From NCBI GenBank assembly GCA_964352475.1, contig CAYGSL010000002.1, positions 106,071 to 170,070 of the forward strand: a stretch of DNA of 64,000 nucleotides. Direction: 5' to 3'. Below the pieces are notes generated by a model. That model worked only from the letters and a program-made list of their open reading frames with translations, made no database searches and had not been told where the DNA came from. The translations under genes and the position numbers were made by a program. This DNA is from an uncultured Pseudomonadales bacterium (lineage in GTDB: Bacteria; Pseudomonadota; Gammaproteobacteria; Pseudomonadales; JAUIET01). Positions 58,712-64,000 of this stretch are shown here, piece by piece (the first letter of the stretch is position 1; the number at the start of each line of letters is the position of its first letter).

Positions 58712-59311
58712 ATGCCGCTAAGCCACTGCAGCCACTGGATTTTCGACATGGATGGCACCTTAACCCTGCCGATGCATGATTTTGACGACATACGTGCGCA
58801 ACTGGGTATCAGTGCCGGAGTGCCTATTCTCGAAGCCATAGAGGCGATGCCCGCAGACCGCGCCGCAGAGTTAAGCAGGCAACTGCATGATATTGAAATG
58901 GAAATAGCAGGGCAGGCCAAGGCGCAACCCGGTGCCAGAGATCTGTTGCAAGCGATGCAGCAACAGGGTCTTCAGCTGGGCATACTCACTCGAAACGGAA
59001 AAGACATAGCGCATGCCACCTTGGCCGCAGCCGGACTGGAGTTCTTTGCTGAGCCTCATATTATCGGCCGCGAATGTTGCGCGCCAAAGCCGTCGCCGGA
59101 TGGTATATGCCATCTGCTCAAGCTATGGGGCGCAGAGCAACAGCAGGCGGCAATGGTGGGTGATTTTTTGTATGACATTGAAGCCGGACGCAAAGCCGGC
59201 GTGAACACAGTGCATTTTGATGAAACAGGCGCCTTTCGCTGGCCTGAGTTCGCAGATCACCGGGTTACCCGCCTGGCAGACATTGCTGAACTCATTGGTT
59301 TGTCTCTGTAG
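58712..59311 (+). CDS. HAD-family hydrolase
   Basis: 199 aa with motif I, WIFDMDGTLT, and a later GDFLYDIEAGRKAG. Confidence 0.85.
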   Translation: MPLSHCSHWIFDMDGTLTLPMHDFDDIRAQLGISAGVPILEAIEAMPADRAAELSRQLHDIEMEIAGQAKAQPGARDLLQAMQQQGLQLGILTRNGKDIAHATLAAAGLEFFAEPHIIGRECCAPKPSPDGICHLLKLWGAEQQQAAMVGDFLYDIEAGRKAGVNTVHFDETGAFRWPEFADHRVTRLADIAELIGLSL

Positions 59312-59435
59312 CGCTAACTTCAACACCTGCATTATGATGCGCGCTGAGCAAGCGCCCCGCGAGTTGGTGTGATCTATTCCGTAATGCCGGTCGTAGAGCA
59401 CAGTACATTCCAAAAAAACTACGGGCCAATGCATT

Positions 59436-59750
59436 ATGAAACACTTCATTTTAAGCAGCTGGAACGCATTAATGGACAATGAGCGAAATCCATTGCGTCA
59501 TCTGGATTTAGCCTCGCAACACGTATTCATGCAAATCCTTGGCTGGATGTGGAGCATGGTGTTTAGCCTTTCTTACCTGTCAATTTACCAATTCGGTCTT
59601 ACCTGGCTGCCGCACATGCTGATAATCGGCGGCGCGTTCTTCACGGTTGCCTTATTTAAAGAAGGCGAAAAGATGGCCTTGCAAGCGGCAGAGATAGCAC
59701 CGTTAAGCCATGGTGCCAACTGCGTTTGGAATCTGGAAAAAGAAGCGTAG
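59436..59750 (+). CDS. small membrane protein, hypothetical
   Basis: 104 aa with two hydrophobic helices. I recognise no family. Confidence 0.5.
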   Translation: MKHFILSSWNALMDNERNPLRHLDLASQHVFMQILGWMWSMVFSLSYLSIYQFGLTWLPHMLIIGGAFFTVALFKEGEKMALQAAEIAPLSHGANCVWNLEKEA

Positions 59751-59776
59751 TACTGTACCGCAGTAAGGATTTCAAC

Positions 59777-60322
59777 ATGATAGATCGCCTGCAACGTACG
59801 CTTGTCACAGGCTTGCTGATCGTCAGTCTCGCTGCTTGCGCAGGTGCTGAAGTAACAGATTACCAAGACTTTGAGCCCAAGTTTGTTCCGGAAACTTTTT
59901 TTAATGGCTCGCTGACTGCACACGGCGTTGTTAAAAATCGCGGCGGTAAGGTGATCAGAAGCTTCAATGCCAATATAGATGCGCAATGGAAAGAGGGGGT
60001 TGGCACTCTGGTTGAGGATTTCATTTTTGATGACGGCGAACAGCAACAGCGAATTTGGACGCTCACACCCGACGGTCAGGGCGCTTACAAGGGCAGCGCT
60101 GGTGATGTAATCGGTGAAACCCAGTTAAAGCTATCAGGTAATAGTCTGTTCATGGAGTACGTGCTGCGCATAGCGTATGGTGACGGAACCCTGGACTTGA
60201 CGGTTGACGATCGAATGCATCTTACGTCCCCTGATGTGTTGATCAATGAGTCGGTGATGAAAAAGTTTGGTATTCGGGTTGGCAGTATTCAGTTGGTGAT
60301 ACTCCGGCACAGCGATACTTAG
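59777..60322 (+). CDS. DUF3833-family lipoprotein
   Basis: ATG 59777 is preceded by aagga. It has the lipobox SLAAC, and FFNGSLTAHGVVKNRGGKVIRSFNANIDAQW..GEQQQRIWTL fits DUF3833 as I recall it. Confidence 0.75.
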   Translation: MIDRLQRTLVTGLLIVSLAACAGAEVTDYQDFEPKFVPETFFNGSLTAHGVVKNRGGKVIRSFNANIDAQWKEGVGTLVEDFIFDDGEQQQRIWTLTPDGQGAYKGSAGDVIGETQLKLSGNSLFMEYVLRIAYGDGTLDLTVDDRMHLTSPDVLINESVMKKFGIRVGSIQLVILRHSDT

Positions 60323-60428
60323 TACTGTAGCAAAAAAATAAAACCATCGAATGACGACTTAATTCGTACAAGACAGCGCCCTGTGGGTATAGTGCTCTGG
60401 AGGTATTTTCCTCGACCATTAGAACCAC

Positions 60429-60896
60429 ATGGAAACAAATGCAATGAATATTAAATCAGTACTTACAACAGTCATAGCTCTGATGTTCTCCGGGATTGCA
60501 ATTGCCGATCTAGAACCATTCAAAGACTATGATATTAGCGAGTCTGTTTGGTCAATCTCTACTATAAGAGTTGACGCCAACATGGACGATGCCTATCTCG
60601 AAGGTTTAAAGCAGACTTGGGTAGCCAGCAACGAAGTATCGAAAAAGCTGGGCCACATCGAAAGCTATTCTATGTTTCGAAGTGACATGCCTCAAAGCGG
60701 TGACTTTAACTTGCTGCTTATCATAAAGTTTGCCAACACCAGCGACCTTGCACCAAACAAAAAACGCTATGAAGAATTCCTGAAGGAATGGGGCGAGACT
60801 AAAAGCAAGGAATCGACTGATTTTGCGCAAAAGAACTATCCTGCGATGAGAGAAATCACAGGCCAGTATCAAATGCGTGAAATTACGCTTAAGTAA
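60429..60896 (+). CDS. secreted hypothetical protein
   Basis: 155 aa with a signal peptide (..ALMFSGIAIA). The coding sequence is AT-richer than its surroundings, and a strong terminator follows. Confidence 0.65.
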   Translation: METNAMNIKSVLTTVIALMFSGIAIADLEPFKDYDISESVWSISTIRVDANMDDAYLEGLKQTWVASNEVSKKLGHIESYSMFRSDMPQSGDFNLLLIIKFANTSDLAPNKKRYEEFLKEWGETKSKESTDFAQKNYPAMREITGQYQMREITLK

Positions 60897-60910
60897 AAAG
60901 CTCTAAATAG

Positions 60911-60941
60911 AAAAAGCCACCCTTATGGGTGGCTTTTTTTT
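60911..60941. terminator. bidirectional rho-independent terminator
   Basis: The sequence is aaaaagccaccc-ttat-gggtggcttttttttt. It lies between the convergent genes 60429..60896 (+) and 60977..61642 (-). Confidence 0.85.
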
Positions 60942-60976
60942 AATCTCAAACGTGAACGAACCACAGCTCGCAGAGA

Positions 60977-61642
60977 TCACTTACTTGATTCAGAGCGTTC
61001 TACCTCTTCATCACGGGTGGCGCGTTCGCCTTCTTCAAGCCTAAGCAAAGTATCAATATACCCAACAAAGCGATTCAAATAATGCGGCGACAATTCCCGC
61101 ATAGACTCCAGTGAACGAATCAATAATTTCTGTGGATTCAACGGACCAAGCGCATCCGGGTCGTTGTTAACAATTGCATCTACCAGGGCATCGGTTTCAA
61201 ACTGCTTCTTGCTTTCCCTAAAAAGGGTATAAGCCTGCAGTTCATTCGGTTGCTTGTTTAGCGTTTCAAAGCCTGCTTCAACTAGCGTGCAGTCTTCCTT
61301 TTCCAGCAGCATTTCTGTGATCGCGTCGCTTGAGTTGCTATCACTTTGTCTTCGGTGTCGATTGTTCAGCGATTGATGCAGGTCTTTCAGATAGTTTCGC
61401 GTTTTCGACCTTCTTGCCAAACGGCAAATATTGTCTTCGTTTGCATCCAGATCACTTTTATAGGCGTCCAGCAGCGACGCTGCTTTGTCGTACAACTTTT
61501 CACGAACGCCTTCTCTCGCTTTGCCCGCTTTGGTCGCAAGCTGGGATATATGGTTGTAGCGCACGGCGTCAAAATGGTGATCGCCATTGGCCATCAACGC
61601 TGTCAGGTGATCTTCAATGTTCTGTTGAACACTGCTCATCAC
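60977..61642 (-). CDS. soluble protein, recalled as DUF2894 family
   Basis: 221 aa. The C-terminal GPLNPQKLLIRSLESMRELSPHYLNRFVGYIDTLLRLEE fits my memory of DUF2894. The start overlaps the upstream stop by 4 nt (ATGA). Confidence 0.65.
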   Translation of the reverse strand: MMSSVQQNIEDHLTALMANGDHHFDAVRYNHISQLATKAGKAREGVREKLYDKAASLLDAYKSDLDANEDNICRLARRSKTRNYLKDLHQSLNNRHRRQSDSNSSDAITEMLLEKEDCTLVEAGFETLNKQPNELQAYTLFRESKKQFETDALVDAIVNNDPDALGPLNPQKLLIRSLESMRELSPHYLNRFVGYIDTLLRLEEGERATRDEEVERSESSK

Positions 61643-62283
61643 TCACTTTCCTTATTGCTTTTTGGTACCGGTGCAATTTCAACGCGTCTATTCTGCGCGC
61701 GGTTTTCCCGGTTGGTATTGGCAACCATCGGCTGCTCTTTGCCAAACGCAGCCGCAAATACCTGGTCGGCAGGCATACCTTCATTGATAAGTGCGCGAGT
61801 AACAGTAAGCGCACGTTCGGCAGACAGCTGCCAGTTGTCGTCAAAGTGTAAATTGTCGCTGTGAATGGCGCGGTCGTCAGTGAAGCCGCTCACCATTAGC
61901 ATCTCATCGCGTTGACTGAGGTATTGCTTTAAGGGCTCAACCAGTTTTTGCAATAACTCTTGTCCATCGTTTTGCAGAGCCGCGGAATTGGTGGCGAACA
62001 ATACGCTGCCGCTGATGCCGATTTTTCCATTGCTTAGTGTGATGCGCCCGCTAGCAAGTGGGTCAGCAAGCGCTATTTCCAACGCTTCCTCAGCACGGTA
62101 ACGTTGCTGTTGCTCCACCTGGCGTTGTTGTACTTCTTGCTCCAGAGACTGCGACAACTCCACCTGATGACCCAGTGTCCATACCAACAGTAATACGAAT
62201 ACGCCTACCACGCCCGCCATTAAGTCGCCAAAGATAGGCCATACCGGCGTGTCGTGAGTCTGACTGTCGTCAAGCTGGTCCAT
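61639..62283 (-). CDS. MotB-like / OmpA-family peptidoglycan-binding protein
   Basis: 214 aa. It has an N-terminal TM with an aspartate (WPIFGDLMAGVVGVFVLLL) and an OmpA-like C-terminus (VLFATNSAAL..GFTD..NWQLSAERA..NRRVEI). The start shares one nucleotide with the upstream stop (TAATG). Confidence 0.88.
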   Translation of the reverse strand: MDQLDDSQTHDTPVWPIFGDLMAGVVGVFVLLLVWTLGHQVELSQSLEQEVQQRQVEQQQRYRAEEALEIALADPLASGRITLSNGKIGISGSVLFATNSAALQNDGQELLQKLVEPLKQYLSQRDEMLMVSGFTDDRAIHSDNLHFDDNWQLSAERALTVTRALINEGMPADQVFAAAFGKEQPMVANTNRENRAQNRRVEIAPVPKSNKESE

Positions 62284-64000
62284 TAGTTTAGCGCCGCAGA
62301 TGAAGCTTCGCTTTGCTCCGGTTCACCGCTGTTGATCTGGCGCATTTCATCAAACAGTTCTCTTTGCGAGAGCAAGCTCTGGTCAATAATTTCTCTGGCT
62401 TGCGCAACGTAGTACGACATTTGTTGGTCGCTGCGATTGCCCGCCGCGTCCATGGATTGTTCTATGCGGTTTAACTGTTGCACCAGCTGCTCGTTCGATT
62501 GGCTGTATTGCGCAACCGCGGTCGCAAATGCCTCGCCCAGGCTTTCCATATTGAGGGCGCTGGCTTCGAAGTGCTCAGTCACACTGCCAAGCTTCGCAAG
62601 CTCGGTGCCAATGTGATGGTTAAAGTCCGCCCCAGCCTGTGCCAATAGCGCAGAAGAATCCTGAATAAGCTGGTTCATAGTCTCGTGTTGCTGCTGTGAG
62701 CTGGCAGCGTTGGCCTGGCTGATACTGTCCAGCTGCTCGATGAGCTGCTGGCGCTCTTGCAGTAAGGTTTTGTCACGCTCTACGTTGCTGGTTATTTCCT
62801 GGCGCAATTGGCCAATCACTTCTGCGGCGGCTTTTGGTGTCTCGCTGGCAGTAGTTATCAATTGCGCCAATGGTTCTTCAAGTGTTTTGCCAAGCTGAGC
62901 GACTTGCTCGGCTACAGAGCTGGTCAGTTGCTCCATACGGGTTTGGTTATGCTCCATCCAGTCTGAGGTGCTGGCCTGTTGCGCGTGCAGGTTTTCTTGC
63001 CAGGCGGCGTTCAGCTGTGTGGTCGTTCCTTGCAGTTGGCTGCTAATAGCGACAAGCTGCTGCTCGGTGGCGGCGCCAATTCGCTGTTGGGTGTTTTCGC
63101 TCGCGCTGGCCAAAGCGTTCAACTGCTCAGCTACCATGGCGCTGATGTTGGCGTTGGTTTTATTGCTGCTTTCAATCAGGCTTTCGTTCAGCGAACGATG
63201 CACAGACGCAGCCAATTCGGTAAACGAGCTTTGCACTGTGTCCTGAAAACCCTGCTGGTTTGCAATCAAGGTGTCGTTCAACGCCGTGCCGTTCTGCACA
63301 ATGCCTTCCATCATGGCCTGCATTTGCTCGGCCAATGCTGGCATTAACTCGGCCTGGGCCTGAAGAATCTGATACGTTTGCTGGCGATTATGGGTAAGCG
63401 AAAATTCGCGAAGCTGCGTGGCTATCTGCGTATCCAGCGAACGTGTTGCCAGCATGCGCTCGCGGCGACTAAGCGTGGACATCAAGCCAAGCATTGCCGA
63501 AGCGGCAACGCCTGCCACTGACGTACCAAAGGCCAAGCTGAGACCGTTAATCGGTGCGGTCAAACCCTGGCGAATGGCTTGCAGTTCGGTACTGCCCTGC
63601 AAAGCAGTAACCGCACCACCCAGGGTATCGACCATGCCAATAAACGTACCGAGTAATCCCAGCATTACCAACAAGCCTACAAGGTAAGGTGTTAGAACTG
63701 GCGCTGGCAAGCCAACGCGTTCACTTTCAATACGCAAACGAACCGGGTTTTGCAAAGAGTGATGTATTTTAGCCAACCAATCATCCAGTTGATTGATAGG
63801 CTGCGGAATATCACGAAGCGCGTTTTCCAGCGAGTCTGTGGCTTTACGAAACTGAAACAACTCCATTCCGCCAATGCCAAAGGCAATTGCAATTAACAGC
63901 GTTACCAGCAAAGCGAGCGTATTTGTGCCTATGAACAGGCCAGCAACCCATATTATGGCAATGGCGCCAATAGCAGCAGGAATAGCAAACAGCAGATTTT
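62283..64000 (-). CDS. MotA/ExbB/TolQ-like membrane protein with long helical tail (recalled as DUF802 family); N-terminus outside window
   Basis: The ORF track starts at TTG 63911, but the frame stays open to the window edge (..NLLFAIPAAIGAIAIIWVAGLFIGTNTLALLVTLL..). It has LGLLGTFIGMVDTLG and GLSLAFGTSVAGVAASAMLG, like MotA_ExbB channel helices. About 400 aa of Q/A/E/L/S-rich helical sequence follows. Confidence 0.85.
   Translation of the reverse strand, partial: NLLFAIPAAIGAIAIIWVAGLFIGTNTLALLVTLLIAIAFGIGGMELFQFRKATDSLENALRDIPQPINQLDDWLAKIHHSLQNPVRLRIESERVGLPAPVLTPYLVGLLVMLGLLGTFIGMVDTLGGAVTALQGSTELQAIRQGLTAPINGLSLAFGTSVAGVAASAMLGLMSTLSRRERMLATRSLDTQIATQLREFSLTHNRQQTYQILQAQAELMPALAEQMQAMMEGIVQNGTALNDTLIANQQGFQDTVQSSFTELAASVHRSLNESLIESSNKTNANISAMVAEQLNALASASENTQQRIGAATEQQLVAISSQLQGTTTQLNAAWQENLHAQQASTSDWMEHNQTRMEQLTSSVAEQVAQLGKTLEEPLAQLITTASETPKAAAEVIGQLRQEITSNVERDKTLLQERQQLIEQLDSISQANAASSQQQHETMNQLIQDSSALLAQAGADFNHHIGTELAKLGSVTEHFEASALNMESLGEAFATAVAQYSQSNEQLVQQLNRIEQSMDAAGNRSDQQMSYYVAQAREIIDQSLLSQRELFDEMRQINSGEPEQSEASSAALN

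What the first reader, a model, noticed from the sequence alone, without database searches (positions are those of the whole stretch)
60977..64000. Stator-like three-gene operon: MotA/ExbB-like protein with a very long helical tail, MotB/OmpA-like protein, and a small soluble protein. It is cut by the window edge.
Seen: three co-directional minus-strand genes are translationally coupled (TAATG at 62283; ATGA at 61639-61642). Gene 1 is at least 572 aa with an open frame to position 64000. It has TM helices with MotA/ExbB/TolQ-like channel motifs (LGLLGTFIGM, GLSLAFGTSVAGVAASAMLG), followed by about 400 residues of low-complexity, Q/A/E/L-rich, presumably coiled-coil sequence. Gene 2 has a single TM carrying an Asp (IFGDLMAGVV), as the proton-conducting Asp of MotB/ExbD/TolR-type partners does, plus an OmpA-type peptidoglycan-binding C-terminus (NRRVEI). 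Gene 3 is a 221-aa soluble protein. Established knowledge: MotAB, ExbBD, TolQR and ZorAB are ion-driven 5:2 motors, and ZorA of the Zorya anti-phage system is distinguished by a long C-terminal helical tail. From memory, these three proteins correspond to the DUF802 / OmpA / DUF2894 cluster, which is often accompanied by a DUF3348 gene and has no assigned function. Inference: this is an uncharacterised ion-driven motor with a long tail, architecturally parallel to ZorAB. It lacks ZorC/D/E-type partners downstream, because a strong terminator follows gene 3. Any further partner must lie beyond position 64000.
Basis: partly seen in the sequence, partly recalled or inferred. Interest (0 to 1): 0.72.

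Follow-up and report, generated by a model that had tools for sequence, protein, structure and literature searches.

The report
Zorya type III anti-phage operon
These three genes are the zorA, zorB and DUF2894 genes of a Zorya type III anti-phage defence system, a kind already named and shown to work in 2021, so the locus is an ordinary new instance and not an unknown motor.

Summary
Three coupled minus-strand genes run from 60977 to the window edge and end at a strong terminator. They are not an uncharacterised system. PADLOC models call them ZorA3 (E 3e-206), ZorB3 (E 8.5e-101) and ZorF3/DUF2894 (E 1e-37). In every related genome locus with upstream DNA, a DUF3348 gene (ZorG3) sits immediately upstream of zorA. 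This gives the canonical type III order zorG-zorA-zorB-zorF. Only about 10 codons of zorA, plus zorG, lie beyond position 64000. Zorya type III was defined by Payne et al. 2021, and a Stenotrophomonas system protected E. coli against phages. The motor features are present. ZorB Asp20 aligns with the essential Asp26 of E. coli ZorB. ZorB has an OmpA peptidoglycan-binding domain. The ZorA channel helices are nearly invariant, and about 385 residues of amphipathic helical tail follow them. ZorF and ZorG are predicted to be all-helical, with no structural or sequence relative in the PDB. How type III stops phage therefore remains unknown. The locus has native base composition, and close relatives share its downstream flank. 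There are no mobile or defence genes in the flank I could see. Interest is low.

The parts
62283..64000 (-). zorA (type III), truncated by the window edge. 571 codons are visible and about 10 N-terminal codons are missing.
   Evidence: PADLOC ZorA3 E 3.1e-206. The head matches the solved Shewanella type I ZorA, 8vvn_C, at E 5.9e-8. It is 85% identical to the 581-aa orthologue in L003.
63480..63716 (-). ZorA channel-forming transmembrane helices (residues 95-128 and 155-173 of the visible protein). They carry the motifs LGLLGTFIGM and LSLAFGTSVAGVAASAMLG.
   Evidence: Hydropathy analysis. Identity is 81-97% across 26 homologues. The region aligns with the GTF and TSV motifs of Shewanella ZorA.
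63849..63998 (-). N-terminal hydrophobic stretch of ZorA (visible residues 1-50). It looks like two membrane segments joined by a short G-T-N turn.
   Evidence: Hydropathy analysis. The topology is inferred only.
62286..63443 (-). ZorA cytoplasmic tail (residues 186-571). It is an amphipathic helical region rich in Q, A, S, L and E.
   Evidence: Composition and 4 prolines. Periodicity is 3.58-3.7 residues, with 0 of 2000 shuffles as strong. There is a weak tail-to-tail alignment with 8vvn_C.
62367..62438 (-). Conserved tail-tip motif NRSDQQMSYYVAQAREIIDQSLLS (residues 521-544). It is a candidate docking site for the soluble partners.
   Evidence: 17 of these 24 residues are at least 95% identical across 26 ZorA3 homologues, in a tail that is otherwise 22-50% identical. 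The docking role is inferred by analogy with the E. coli ZorA tail tip (PMC11946911).
61639..62283 (-). zorB (type III), 214 aa. Its start overlaps the zorA stop (TAATG).
   Evidence: PADLOC ZorB3 E 8.5e-101. NCBIfam PRK09040 at 326 bits against a cutoff of 194. Junction sequence.
62224..62226 (-). Codon for ZorB Asp20, in the single transmembrane helix (IFGDLMAG).
   Evidence: It aligns with Asp26 of E. coli ZorB (8qyd_F) and with the equivalent Asp of Shewanella ZorB (8vvn_B). D26N abolishes E. coli Zorya I defence (PMC11946911).
61687..62001 (-). ZorB OmpA-type peptidoglycan-binding domain (residues 95-199).
   Evidence: Pfam OmpA E 9.7e-20. PDB MotB and PomB C-terminal domains at E 4e-15 to 1e-9.
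60977..61642 (-). zorF (the DUF2894 protein, called ZorF3 in PADLOC-DB and ZorG in the text of Payne 2021). It is 220 or 221 aa, and its start overlaps the zorB stop.
   Evidence: PADLOC ZorF3 E 1.1e-37. Pfam DUF2894 E 3.5e-29. The AF2 model is all-helical, with pLDDT 69.6 and pTM 0.33.
60911..60938 (.). Intrinsic terminator hairpin (12 bp, A-run on one side and U-run on the other). It is shared with the convergent gene at 60429-60896.
   Evidence: Sequence. Fold of 60900-60976: -28.3 kcal/mol, z = -4.3.

Best explanation
The locus is the zorA-zorB-zorF part of a chromosomal Zorya type III anti-phage system in a marine gammaproteobacterium. The fourth gene, zorG (DUF3348), and the first 10 or so codons of zorA lie just beyond position 64000. 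The likely mechanism follows from the solved type I and II systems. Five ZorA and two ZorB subunits would form an inner-membrane proton-driven 5:2 rotary motor. When phage entry disturbs the envelope, the OmpA-like domains of ZorB would anchor to peptidoglycan. Protons passing ZorB Asp20 and the invariant Thr/Ser of the ZorA helices would then drive ZorA, with its roughly 385-residue (about 50-60 nm) helical tail, around ZorB. The conserved tail tip would pass this signal to the soluble helical proteins ZorF and ZorG, which replace ZorC/D and ZorE. What is shown here: family membership, gene order in orthologous loci, the key residues and domains, and the helical character of the tail. What is inferred: 5:2 stoichiometry, rotation, tail-tip docking, and what ZorF/ZorG do. 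They have no recognisable nuclease or other enzyme fold, so the final step that blocks the phage is unknown.
For: PADLOC-DB gives ZorA3 3.1e-206, ZorB3 8.5e-101 and ZorF3 1.1e-37. Pfam gives OmpA 9.7e-20 and DUF2894 3.5e-29. Among the related genome loci, every one with enough DNA has zorG-zorA-zorB-zorF in that order. The upstream gene in L003 and L005 scores as ZorG3 at 4e-47 and as DUF3348 at 1e-35, and it overlaps the zorA start. The ZorA head matches the solved type I ZorA 8vvn_C at 5.9e-8. ZorB Asp20 aligns with the essential Asp26 of E. coli ZorB (PMC11946911). The tail shows significant amphipathic periodicity and a conserved tip motif. In the literature, type III was defined as ZorA and ZorB flanked by DUF3348 and DUF2894 proteins. 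The S. nitritireducens system reduced plaquing and prevented culture collapse at MOI < 0.1 in E. coli (PMC8565338). The canonical order is zorGABF (PMC11946911). Type III genes are upregulated on phage exposure in S. maltophilia and B. cenocepacia.
Against: zorG cannot be seen in this window. No phage assay exists for this locus or for any close relative. The only functional test of type III found in the searched library is one heterologous system from a distant genus. ZorF and ZorG have no nuclease or DNA-binding signature: Foldseek against the PDB gave no hit at E <= 0.001 and PDB profile searches gave nothing. The 'recruit a nuclease' step of the type I and II models therefore may not transfer. 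The locus does not look like a typical defence island. Its composition is native, two of its three closest relatives share its downstream flank (L004, L005; L003 differs), and the visible 10 kb holds no defence or mobile genes. Pfam MotA_ExbB does not hit ZorA.
Confidence: 0.85

Rival explanations
1. The four-gene cluster is mainly a housekeeping envelope motor. It would be a PMF-driven machine for envelope maintenance or stress signalling, inherited vertically, whose anti-phage effect in a heterologous host is secondary.
For: The operon GC content is 51.5% against 51.0% for the window, and GC3 is within the window's range. The downstream flank is collinear with L005 and L004 at 60-90% identity. 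Flanks are shared within genus-level groups. No defence, integrase or transposase genes lie in the 10 kb downstream. ZorF and ZorG have no enzymatic fold. Type III is concentrated in particular genera (PMC11890865).
Against: A type III system did protect E. coli against phages (PMC8565338). Its genes respond transcriptionally to phage in two species. L003, at 85% ZorA identity, has different flanks, so the site is not fixed. No envelope phenotype has been reported in the papers found.
Confidence: 0.1
2. It is an ordinary MotAB flagellar stator, or an ExbBD-TonB or TolQR-Pal energy-transducing operon.
For: The ZorB C-terminus resembles MotB, PomB and OmpA domains. The ZorA channel helices resemble the MotA/ExbB superfamily.
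Against: Pfam MotA_ExbB gives no hit at E <= 0.1. All NCBIfam MotB, MotD and MotS scores are far below their cutoffs, for example 88 bits against 283. The roughly 385-residue tail is absent from those families. The partners are DUF2894 and DUF3348, not TonB, TolA, Pal or flagellar genes. The type III HMM scores are overwhelmingly higher.
Confidence: 0.02
3. It is a Zorya type I or type II system whose ZorC/D or ZorE genes lie elsewhere.
For: There are weak hits to ZorA1 (1.4e-14), ZorA2 (1.4e-6) and ZorB1 (3.5e-21).
Against: The type III models score 150 to 190 orders of magnitude better. NCBIfam antiphage_ZorA_1 and _2 score below their cutoffs. The flanking genes in all orthologous loci are DUF3348 and DUF2894. 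A terminator follows zorF.
Confidence: 0.02

Closest known systems
Zorya type III (zorGABF; Payne et al. 2021, PADLOC models ZorA3/ZorB3/ZorF3/ZorG3)
   Same: All three visible proteins match the type III models at E 1e-37 to 3e-206. The order A-B-F, the shared strand and the overlapping start and stop codons all fit. Orthologous loci carry the DUF3348 gene upstream.
   Different: The tail is among the shortest in the set compared here: 581 aa in total against 551-777 aa. Other homologues carry 11-218 extra residues at tail positions 344-350. The Pfam DUF802 tail segment is not detectable in this copy. The host is an uncultured marine gammaproteobacterium, whereas the best-populated type III genera are Burkholderia, Xanthomonas and Stenotrophomonas.
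Zorya type I of E. coli and Shewanella (ZorABCD; PDB 8qyd, 8vvn)
   Same: The ZorA channel helices are homologous (8vvn_C, E 5.9e-8). The ZorB transmembrane Asp and the OmpA-like peptidoglycan-binding domain are shared. Both have a long helical cytoplasmic tail. A 5:2 proton-driven rotary mechanism is presumed for both.
   Different: There is no ZorC (DNA-binding) and no ZorD (nuclease). The partners here are two all-helical proteins with no known fold relatives. ZorA probably has an extra N-terminal membrane segment: two hydrophobic segments precede the cytoplasmic loop, against one TM1 in E. coli ZorA. The tail is about 385 residues against about 507.
Flagellar stator MotAB/PomAB and ExbBD/TolQR 5:2 motors
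   Same: They share the superfamily-level channel architecture, the essential Asp in the B subunit and, for MotB and PomB, an OmpA-like peptidoglycan anchor.
   Different: Pfam MotA_ExbB does not match. A long tail replaces the rotor-binding or TonB/TolA-coupling surfaces. The genomic partners differ, and the output is thought to be defence signalling, not torque on a flagellum or energy transfer to the outer membrane.

Membership tests
Zorya type III | ZorA: a MotA/ExbB-like membrane head followed by a long C-terminal helical tail | tested here: met
   PADLOC ZorA3 E 3.1e-206. Head matches 8vvn_C at 5.9e-8. The 386-residue tail has a periodicity of 3.58-3.7 and only 4 prolines.
Zorya type III | ZorB: an N-terminal transmembrane helix with the conserved Asp, plus an OmpA-like peptidoglycan-binding domain | tested here: met
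   PADLOC ZorB3 E 8.5e-101. Pfam OmpA 9.7e-20. Asp20 aligns with E. coli ZorB Asp26.
Zorya type III | A DUF2894 protein encoded immediately downstream of zorB | tested here: met
   Pfam DUF2894 E 3.5e-29. PADLOC ZorF3 1.1e-37. Its start overlaps the zorB stop.
Zorya type III | A DUF3348 protein encoded immediately upstream of zorA | tested here: inconclusive
   The gene would lie beyond position 64000, so it cannot be seen in the window. It is present and overlaps the zorA start in L003 and L005 (PADLOC ZorG3 4e-47, Pfam DUF3348 1e-35). It is present in every related locus with upstream DNA.
Zorya type III | Canonical order zorG-zorA-zorB-zorF on one strand | tested here: met
   A-B-F are in order on the minus strand with overlapping junctions. 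The full G-A-B-F order is seen in the related loci. The canonical order is stated in PMC11946911.
Zorya type III | Protection against phage infection that depends on all components | not testable with these tools
   Shown only for the S. nitritireducens system in E. coli (PMC8565338).
Zorya type III | ZorA5:ZorB2 assembly | not tested
   No multimer modelling was available. This stoichiometry has been solved only for types I and II (PMC11946911, PMC11890865).
Zorya type I / type II | Accessory genes zorC and zorD (type I) or zorE (type II) downstream of zorB | tested here: not met
   The gene downstream of zorB is DUF2894, followed by a terminator. The next 10 genes have no PADLOC hits. The ZorA1 and ZorA2 models score only 1e-14 and 1e-6.
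MotAB / ExbBD / TolQR | The A subunit matches Pfam MotA_ExbB, and the operon encodes or adjoins TonB, TolA-Pal or flagellar genes | tested here: not met
   MotA_ExbB gives no hit at E <= 0.1. NCBIfam MotB-type scores are below their cutoffs. The neighbours are DUF2894, DUF3833, HAD and DUF2058.

The most novel reading that the evidence does not exclude
Zorya type III may stop phage without a nuclease. Both accessory proteins are all-helical and have no enzyme-like fold or PDB relative. The locus also looks like a stably inherited chromosomal module. ZorF and ZorG docked on the invariant tail-tip motif could therefore couple the motor to a different output. Examples are membrane depolarisation or remodelling (an abortive outcome), or capture of a host or phage factor. 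None of these has been described for any 5:2 motor system.
Probability: 0.3. Interest if true: 0.6.

Novelty: already known. Interest (0 to 1): 0.2.

Why it matters
As found, it matters little, because PADLOC, whose ZorA3, ZorB3 and ZorF3 models match the three proteins, would be expected to label the locus Zorya type III. Its modest value is as a compact natural example of the subtype whose effector mechanism is still unknown. It has one of the shortest tails in the set compared. It also has a sharply conserved tail-tip motif, and its partners have no recognisable enzymatic domain. These features could guide experiments on how a tailed 5:2 motor signals to non-nuclease partners.

Tried and rejected
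1. Pfam on ZorA gave no MotA_ExbB or DUF802 hit. DUF802 appears only in the longer-tailed homologues.
2. The exact-sequence lookup of ZorB found only two 5.4-kb Logan contigs that also end inside zorA. The window's own upstream DNA could not be recovered.
3. AlphaFold2 on ZorF gave pLDDT 69.6 and pTM 0.33. On a ZorG orthologue it gave pLDDT 80.7 and pTM 0.74. Foldseek of both models against the PDB gave no hit at E <= 0.001.
4. PDB profile searches with the ZorF and ZorG alignments found nothing.
5. An hhalign comparison of ZorF and ZorG showed no homology between them.
6. A search of 1.84 billion representative proteins with the ZorF profile looked for informative domain fusions. The family has 2181 clusters. 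The top 150 are all stand-alone proteins of 183-332 aa, so there are no fusion clues.
7. A homologue search with the tail tip alone returned only 12 short fragments.
8. pI and net charge of ZorF and ZorG gave no consistent hint of DNA binding.
9. The simple terminator scan missed the hairpin. Folding confirmed it.
10. MotAB, ExbBD, TolQR and Zorya I/II were considered and rejected on HMM scores and gene partners.
Full report
**1. Observation**

The region holds three minus-strand ORFs:
- Gene 1 runs from 62283 to the window edge. It has 571 open codons in the frame that starts at 63998.
- Gene 2 is 61639-62283 (214 aa).
- Gene 3 is 60977-61642. It is 221 aa from the GTG start, or 220 aa from the ATG at 61639.

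The zorA stop and the zorB start overlap as TAATG. The second junction reads GTGATG. This is a minor error and translational coupling still holds.

A 12-bp hairpin lies at 60911-60938, with an A-run on one side and a U-run on the other. The 77-nt stretch 60900-60976 that contains it folds at -28.3 kcal/mol, with z = -4.3 and 0 of 200 shuffles as stable. The hairpin also faces the convergent gene at 60429-60896. The consensus terminator scan missed it, probably because the A/U pairs absorb the T-run.

**2. Identity**

PADLOC-DB models give decisive matches:

| Gene | Best model | E-value |
|---|---|---|
| Gene 1 | ZorA3 | 3.1e-206 |
| Gene 2 | ZorB3 | 8.5e-101 |
| Gene 3 | ZorF3 (DUF2894) | 1.1e-37 |

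- The type I and II models score far lower: ZorA1 1.4e-14, ZorA2 1.4e-6 and ZorB1 3.5e-21.
- Pfam confirms OmpA (9.7e-20) in gene 2 and DUF2894 (3.5e-29) in gene 3. It finds neither MotA_ExbB nor DUF802 in gene 1.
- NCBIfam places gene 2 in PRK09040 (326 bits against a cutoff of 194). It scores the MotB-type and antiphage ZorA_1 and ZorA_2 models below their cutoffs.

**3. The missing part**

A scan of species-representative genomes returned 27 related loci from marine gammaproteobacteria. These are Pseudomonadales and Cellvibrionales MAGs, Halioglobus, Seongchinamella, Spongiibacter, Zhongshania and Arenicella, plus one MAG labelled Desulfobacterales. The best match is 85% identical.

- In L003 the ZorA orthologue is 581 aa. 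The window copy aligns from its residue 11, so only about 10 codons are missing.
- A 246-aa ORF lies immediately upstream and overlaps the zorA start. It scores as ZorG3 (4.2e-47) and as Pfam DUF3348 (1.3e-35). The same holds in L005.
- I searched all loci with HMMs built from my ZorF and ZorG alignments, and with tblastn for ZorB and ZorF. Every locus with enough DNA has zorG-zorA-zorB-zorF in that order.
- Exact-sequence lookup of the window's ZorB found only two 5.4-kb contigs that also end inside zorA. The window's own upstream DNA could not be recovered.

**4. What is already known**

- Payne et al. 2021 (PMC8565338) reported 6,401 ZorA/ZorB gene pairs (the paper's text prints 'zorBC') flanked by DUF3348 and DUF2894 genes and named them Zorya type III.
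- They cloned the Stenotrophomonas nitritireducens system into E. coli. It reduced the efficiency of plaquing and prevented culture collapse at MOI < 0.1.
- Hu et al. 2024 (PMC11946911) give the canonical order as zorGABF. For type I they solved a ZorA5B2 proton-driven motor with a pentameric tail of about 70 nm.
- In that system ZorB D26N and tail truncations abolish defence. The tail tip is needed to recruit the nuclease ZorD.
- Mariano et al. 2025 (PMC11890865) solved type I and II ZorAB. [quoted passage not shown]
- Type III genes are upregulated on phage exposure in B. cenocepacia and S. maltophilia.
- None of the papers found assigns a mechanism to the DUF2894 or DUF3348 proteins.
- Naming is inconsistent. 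The text of Payne 2021 calls DUF3348 ZorF and DUF2894 ZorG. PADLOC-DB and 'zorGABF' use the opposite names. I follow PADLOC-DB here.

**5. Anatomy of this copy**

*ZorB.* Asp20 in IFGDLMAG aligns with Asp26 of E. coli ZorB (8qyd_F) and with the equivalent Asp of Shewanella ZorB (8vvn_B). Residues 95-199 form an OmpA-type domain related to the MotB and PomB C-terminal domains.

*ZorA head.*
- It matches the solved Shewanella type I ZorA (8vvn_C, E 5.9e-8). The GTF and TSV motifs align.
- Across 26 homologues, residues 97-181 are 81-97% identical. T118, T159 and S160 are conserved in at least 95% of them.
- By inference, these correspond to the Thr/Ser ion filter described for E. coli ZorA.
- The N-terminal 50 to 60 residues form two hydrophobic segments joined by a G-T-N turn.
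- This suggests four membrane segments, as in MotA, whereas E. coli ZorA has three. This is inference only.

*ZorA tail (residues 186-571).*
- It is rich in Q, A, S, L and E, acidic (pI 4.5), and has four prolines.
- Its hydrophobic periodicity is 3.58-3.7 residues, and no shuffle out of 2000 matched its strength.
- This fits amphipathic helices with a repeat longer than the heptad. Hu et al. modelled the E. coli ZorA tail as a right-handed coiled coil.
- At 0.14-0.15 nm per residue, an unbroken tail would reach about 50-60 nm (inference).
- Conservation in the tail is low (22-50%), except for the tip motif NRSDQQMSYYVAQAREIIDQSLLS at residues 521-544. Seventeen of its 24 residues are at least 95% identical.
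- ZorA length ranges from 551 to 777 aa. Almost all indels fall at window residues 344-350.
- The 53-residue Pfam DUF802 matches three longer homologues at about residues 320-372, but not this copy.

**6. The accessory proteins**

- AlphaFold2 predicts ZorF as all-helical but not compact (pLDDT 69.6, pTM 0.33). Its N-terminal 70 residues are confidently modelled. Its invariant C-terminal motif GPLNPQ..L.....MRELSP.YL..FV..D.L is only moderately so.
- A ZorG orthologue folds as a confident helical bundle (pLDDT 80.7, pTM 0.74).
- Foldseek against the PDB gave no hit at E <= 0.001 for either model. PDB profile searches found nothing.
- The two families are not homologous to each other.
- A profile search of 1.84 billion representative proteins found 2181 DUF2894 clusters. 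The best 150 are all stand-alone proteins of 183-332 aa, so no fusion partner hints at a function.
- Type III therefore lacks the recognisable nuclease found in types I and II.

**7. Genomic context**

- The operon's GC content (51.5%) and GC3 match the window's (51.0%).
- The ten genes downstream include DUF3833, a HAD hydrolase, DUF2058, DUF6482, a Sel1-repeat protein and a 7TMR-DISM histidine kinase. They have no PADLOC hits and no integrase or transposase domains.
- The flank at 49-58 kb is collinear with L005 at 60-90% identity. L004 shares the immediately adjacent genes.
- Relative to L005, several genes lie between zorF and DUF2058 in the window.
- L003 has different flanks. Across the wider set, flanks are shared only within genus-level groups.
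- The visible side therefore looks like a stable chromosomal site, not a defence island. The upstream side is unseen.

**8. Mechanism and rivals**

*Best explanation (confidence 0.85 for the identity; the mechanism is inherited by analogy).* A ZorA5B2 proton-driven motor is anchored to peptidoglycan by ZorB when phage disturbs the envelope. Its rotating tail signals through the conserved tip to ZorF and ZorG.

What is shown here:
- family membership
- gene order in orthologous loci
- the Asp, the OmpA domain and the channel motifs
- the helical tail and its conserved tip

What is inferred:
- 5:2 stoichiometry
- rotation
- docking of ZorF and ZorG on the tail tip
- the effector step that blocks the phage

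*Rivals.*
- A housekeeping envelope motor (0.1). The stable context and the lack of an enzymatic effector support it. The published defence phenotype and the induction by phage argue against it.
- MotAB, ExbBD or TolQR (0.02). Rejected on HMM scores and gene partners.
- Zorya I or II (0.02). Rejected on HMM scores and gene partners.

**9. Verdict**

The system is nevertheless a named, experimentally supported defence type, so its own refutation criterion is met. Novelty is 'already known' and interest is 0.2. The most novel reading still open is that type III acts without a nuclease, through its two helical partners (probability about 0.3).

Noticed in passing
window 62367-62438 (ZorA residues 521-544): The tail-tip motif NRSDQQMSYYVAQAREIIDQSLLS is almost invariant across 26 ZorA3 homologues, although the rest of the tail is only 22-50% identical. 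It may be the docking surface for ZorF and ZorG.
   Followed up: partly
window about 62949-62969 (ZorA residues 344-350): This is a hot spot for tail-length variation. Other homologues carry 11-218 extra residues here, giving ZorA lengths of 551-777 aa. The window's clade has one of the shortest tails.
   Followed up: partly
L006, L012 and L028 ZorA, residues about 320-372: Pfam DUF802 (53 aa) is a short tail segment that scores above its cutoff only in some longer-tailed homologues. The window's ZorA does not score. The 'DUF802' label therefore fits the family but not this copy.
   Followed up: yes
window 63849-63998 (ZorA residues 1-50): Two consecutive hydrophobic segments joined by a G-T-N turn suggest four membrane segments, as in MotA. 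The solved E. coli ZorA has three. This rests on hydropathy only.
   Followed up: no
window 58712-60896 compared with L005 12989-13027: In L005 the DUF2058 gene directly follows zorF. In the window, four genes lie between them: a 155-aa ORF, DUF3833, a 104-aa ORF and a HAD hydrolase. L004 has the 155-aa and HAD genes but not DUF3833.
   Followed up: partly
window 61637-61642: zorF has two possible overlapping starts: GTG at 61642-61640 (221 aa) and ATG at 61639-61637 (220 aa). Gene calls on identical public contigs use the ATG.
   Followed up: yes
alignment A1 (ZorF family), C-terminal ends: Distant DUF2894 homologues end in lysine-rich basic tails and have a pI of 9 to 9.8. The window's clade ends in an acidic tail and has a pI of about 5.4. 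This may mean different binding partners.
   Followed up: no
literature (PMC8565338 compared with PADLOC-DB and PMC11946911): The names ZorF and ZorG are swapped between sources. The text of Payne 2021 has DUF3348 = ZorF and DUF2894 = ZorG. PADLOC-DB and 'zorGABF' have DUF2894 = ZorF and DUF3348 = ZorG. PMC11946911 itself prints both zorFABG and zorGABF.
   Followed up: yes
window 60911-60938: The terminator hairpin has an A-run on one side and a U-run on the other. It sits between the convergent genes zorF and 60429-60896, so it could act in both directions.
   Followed up: partly
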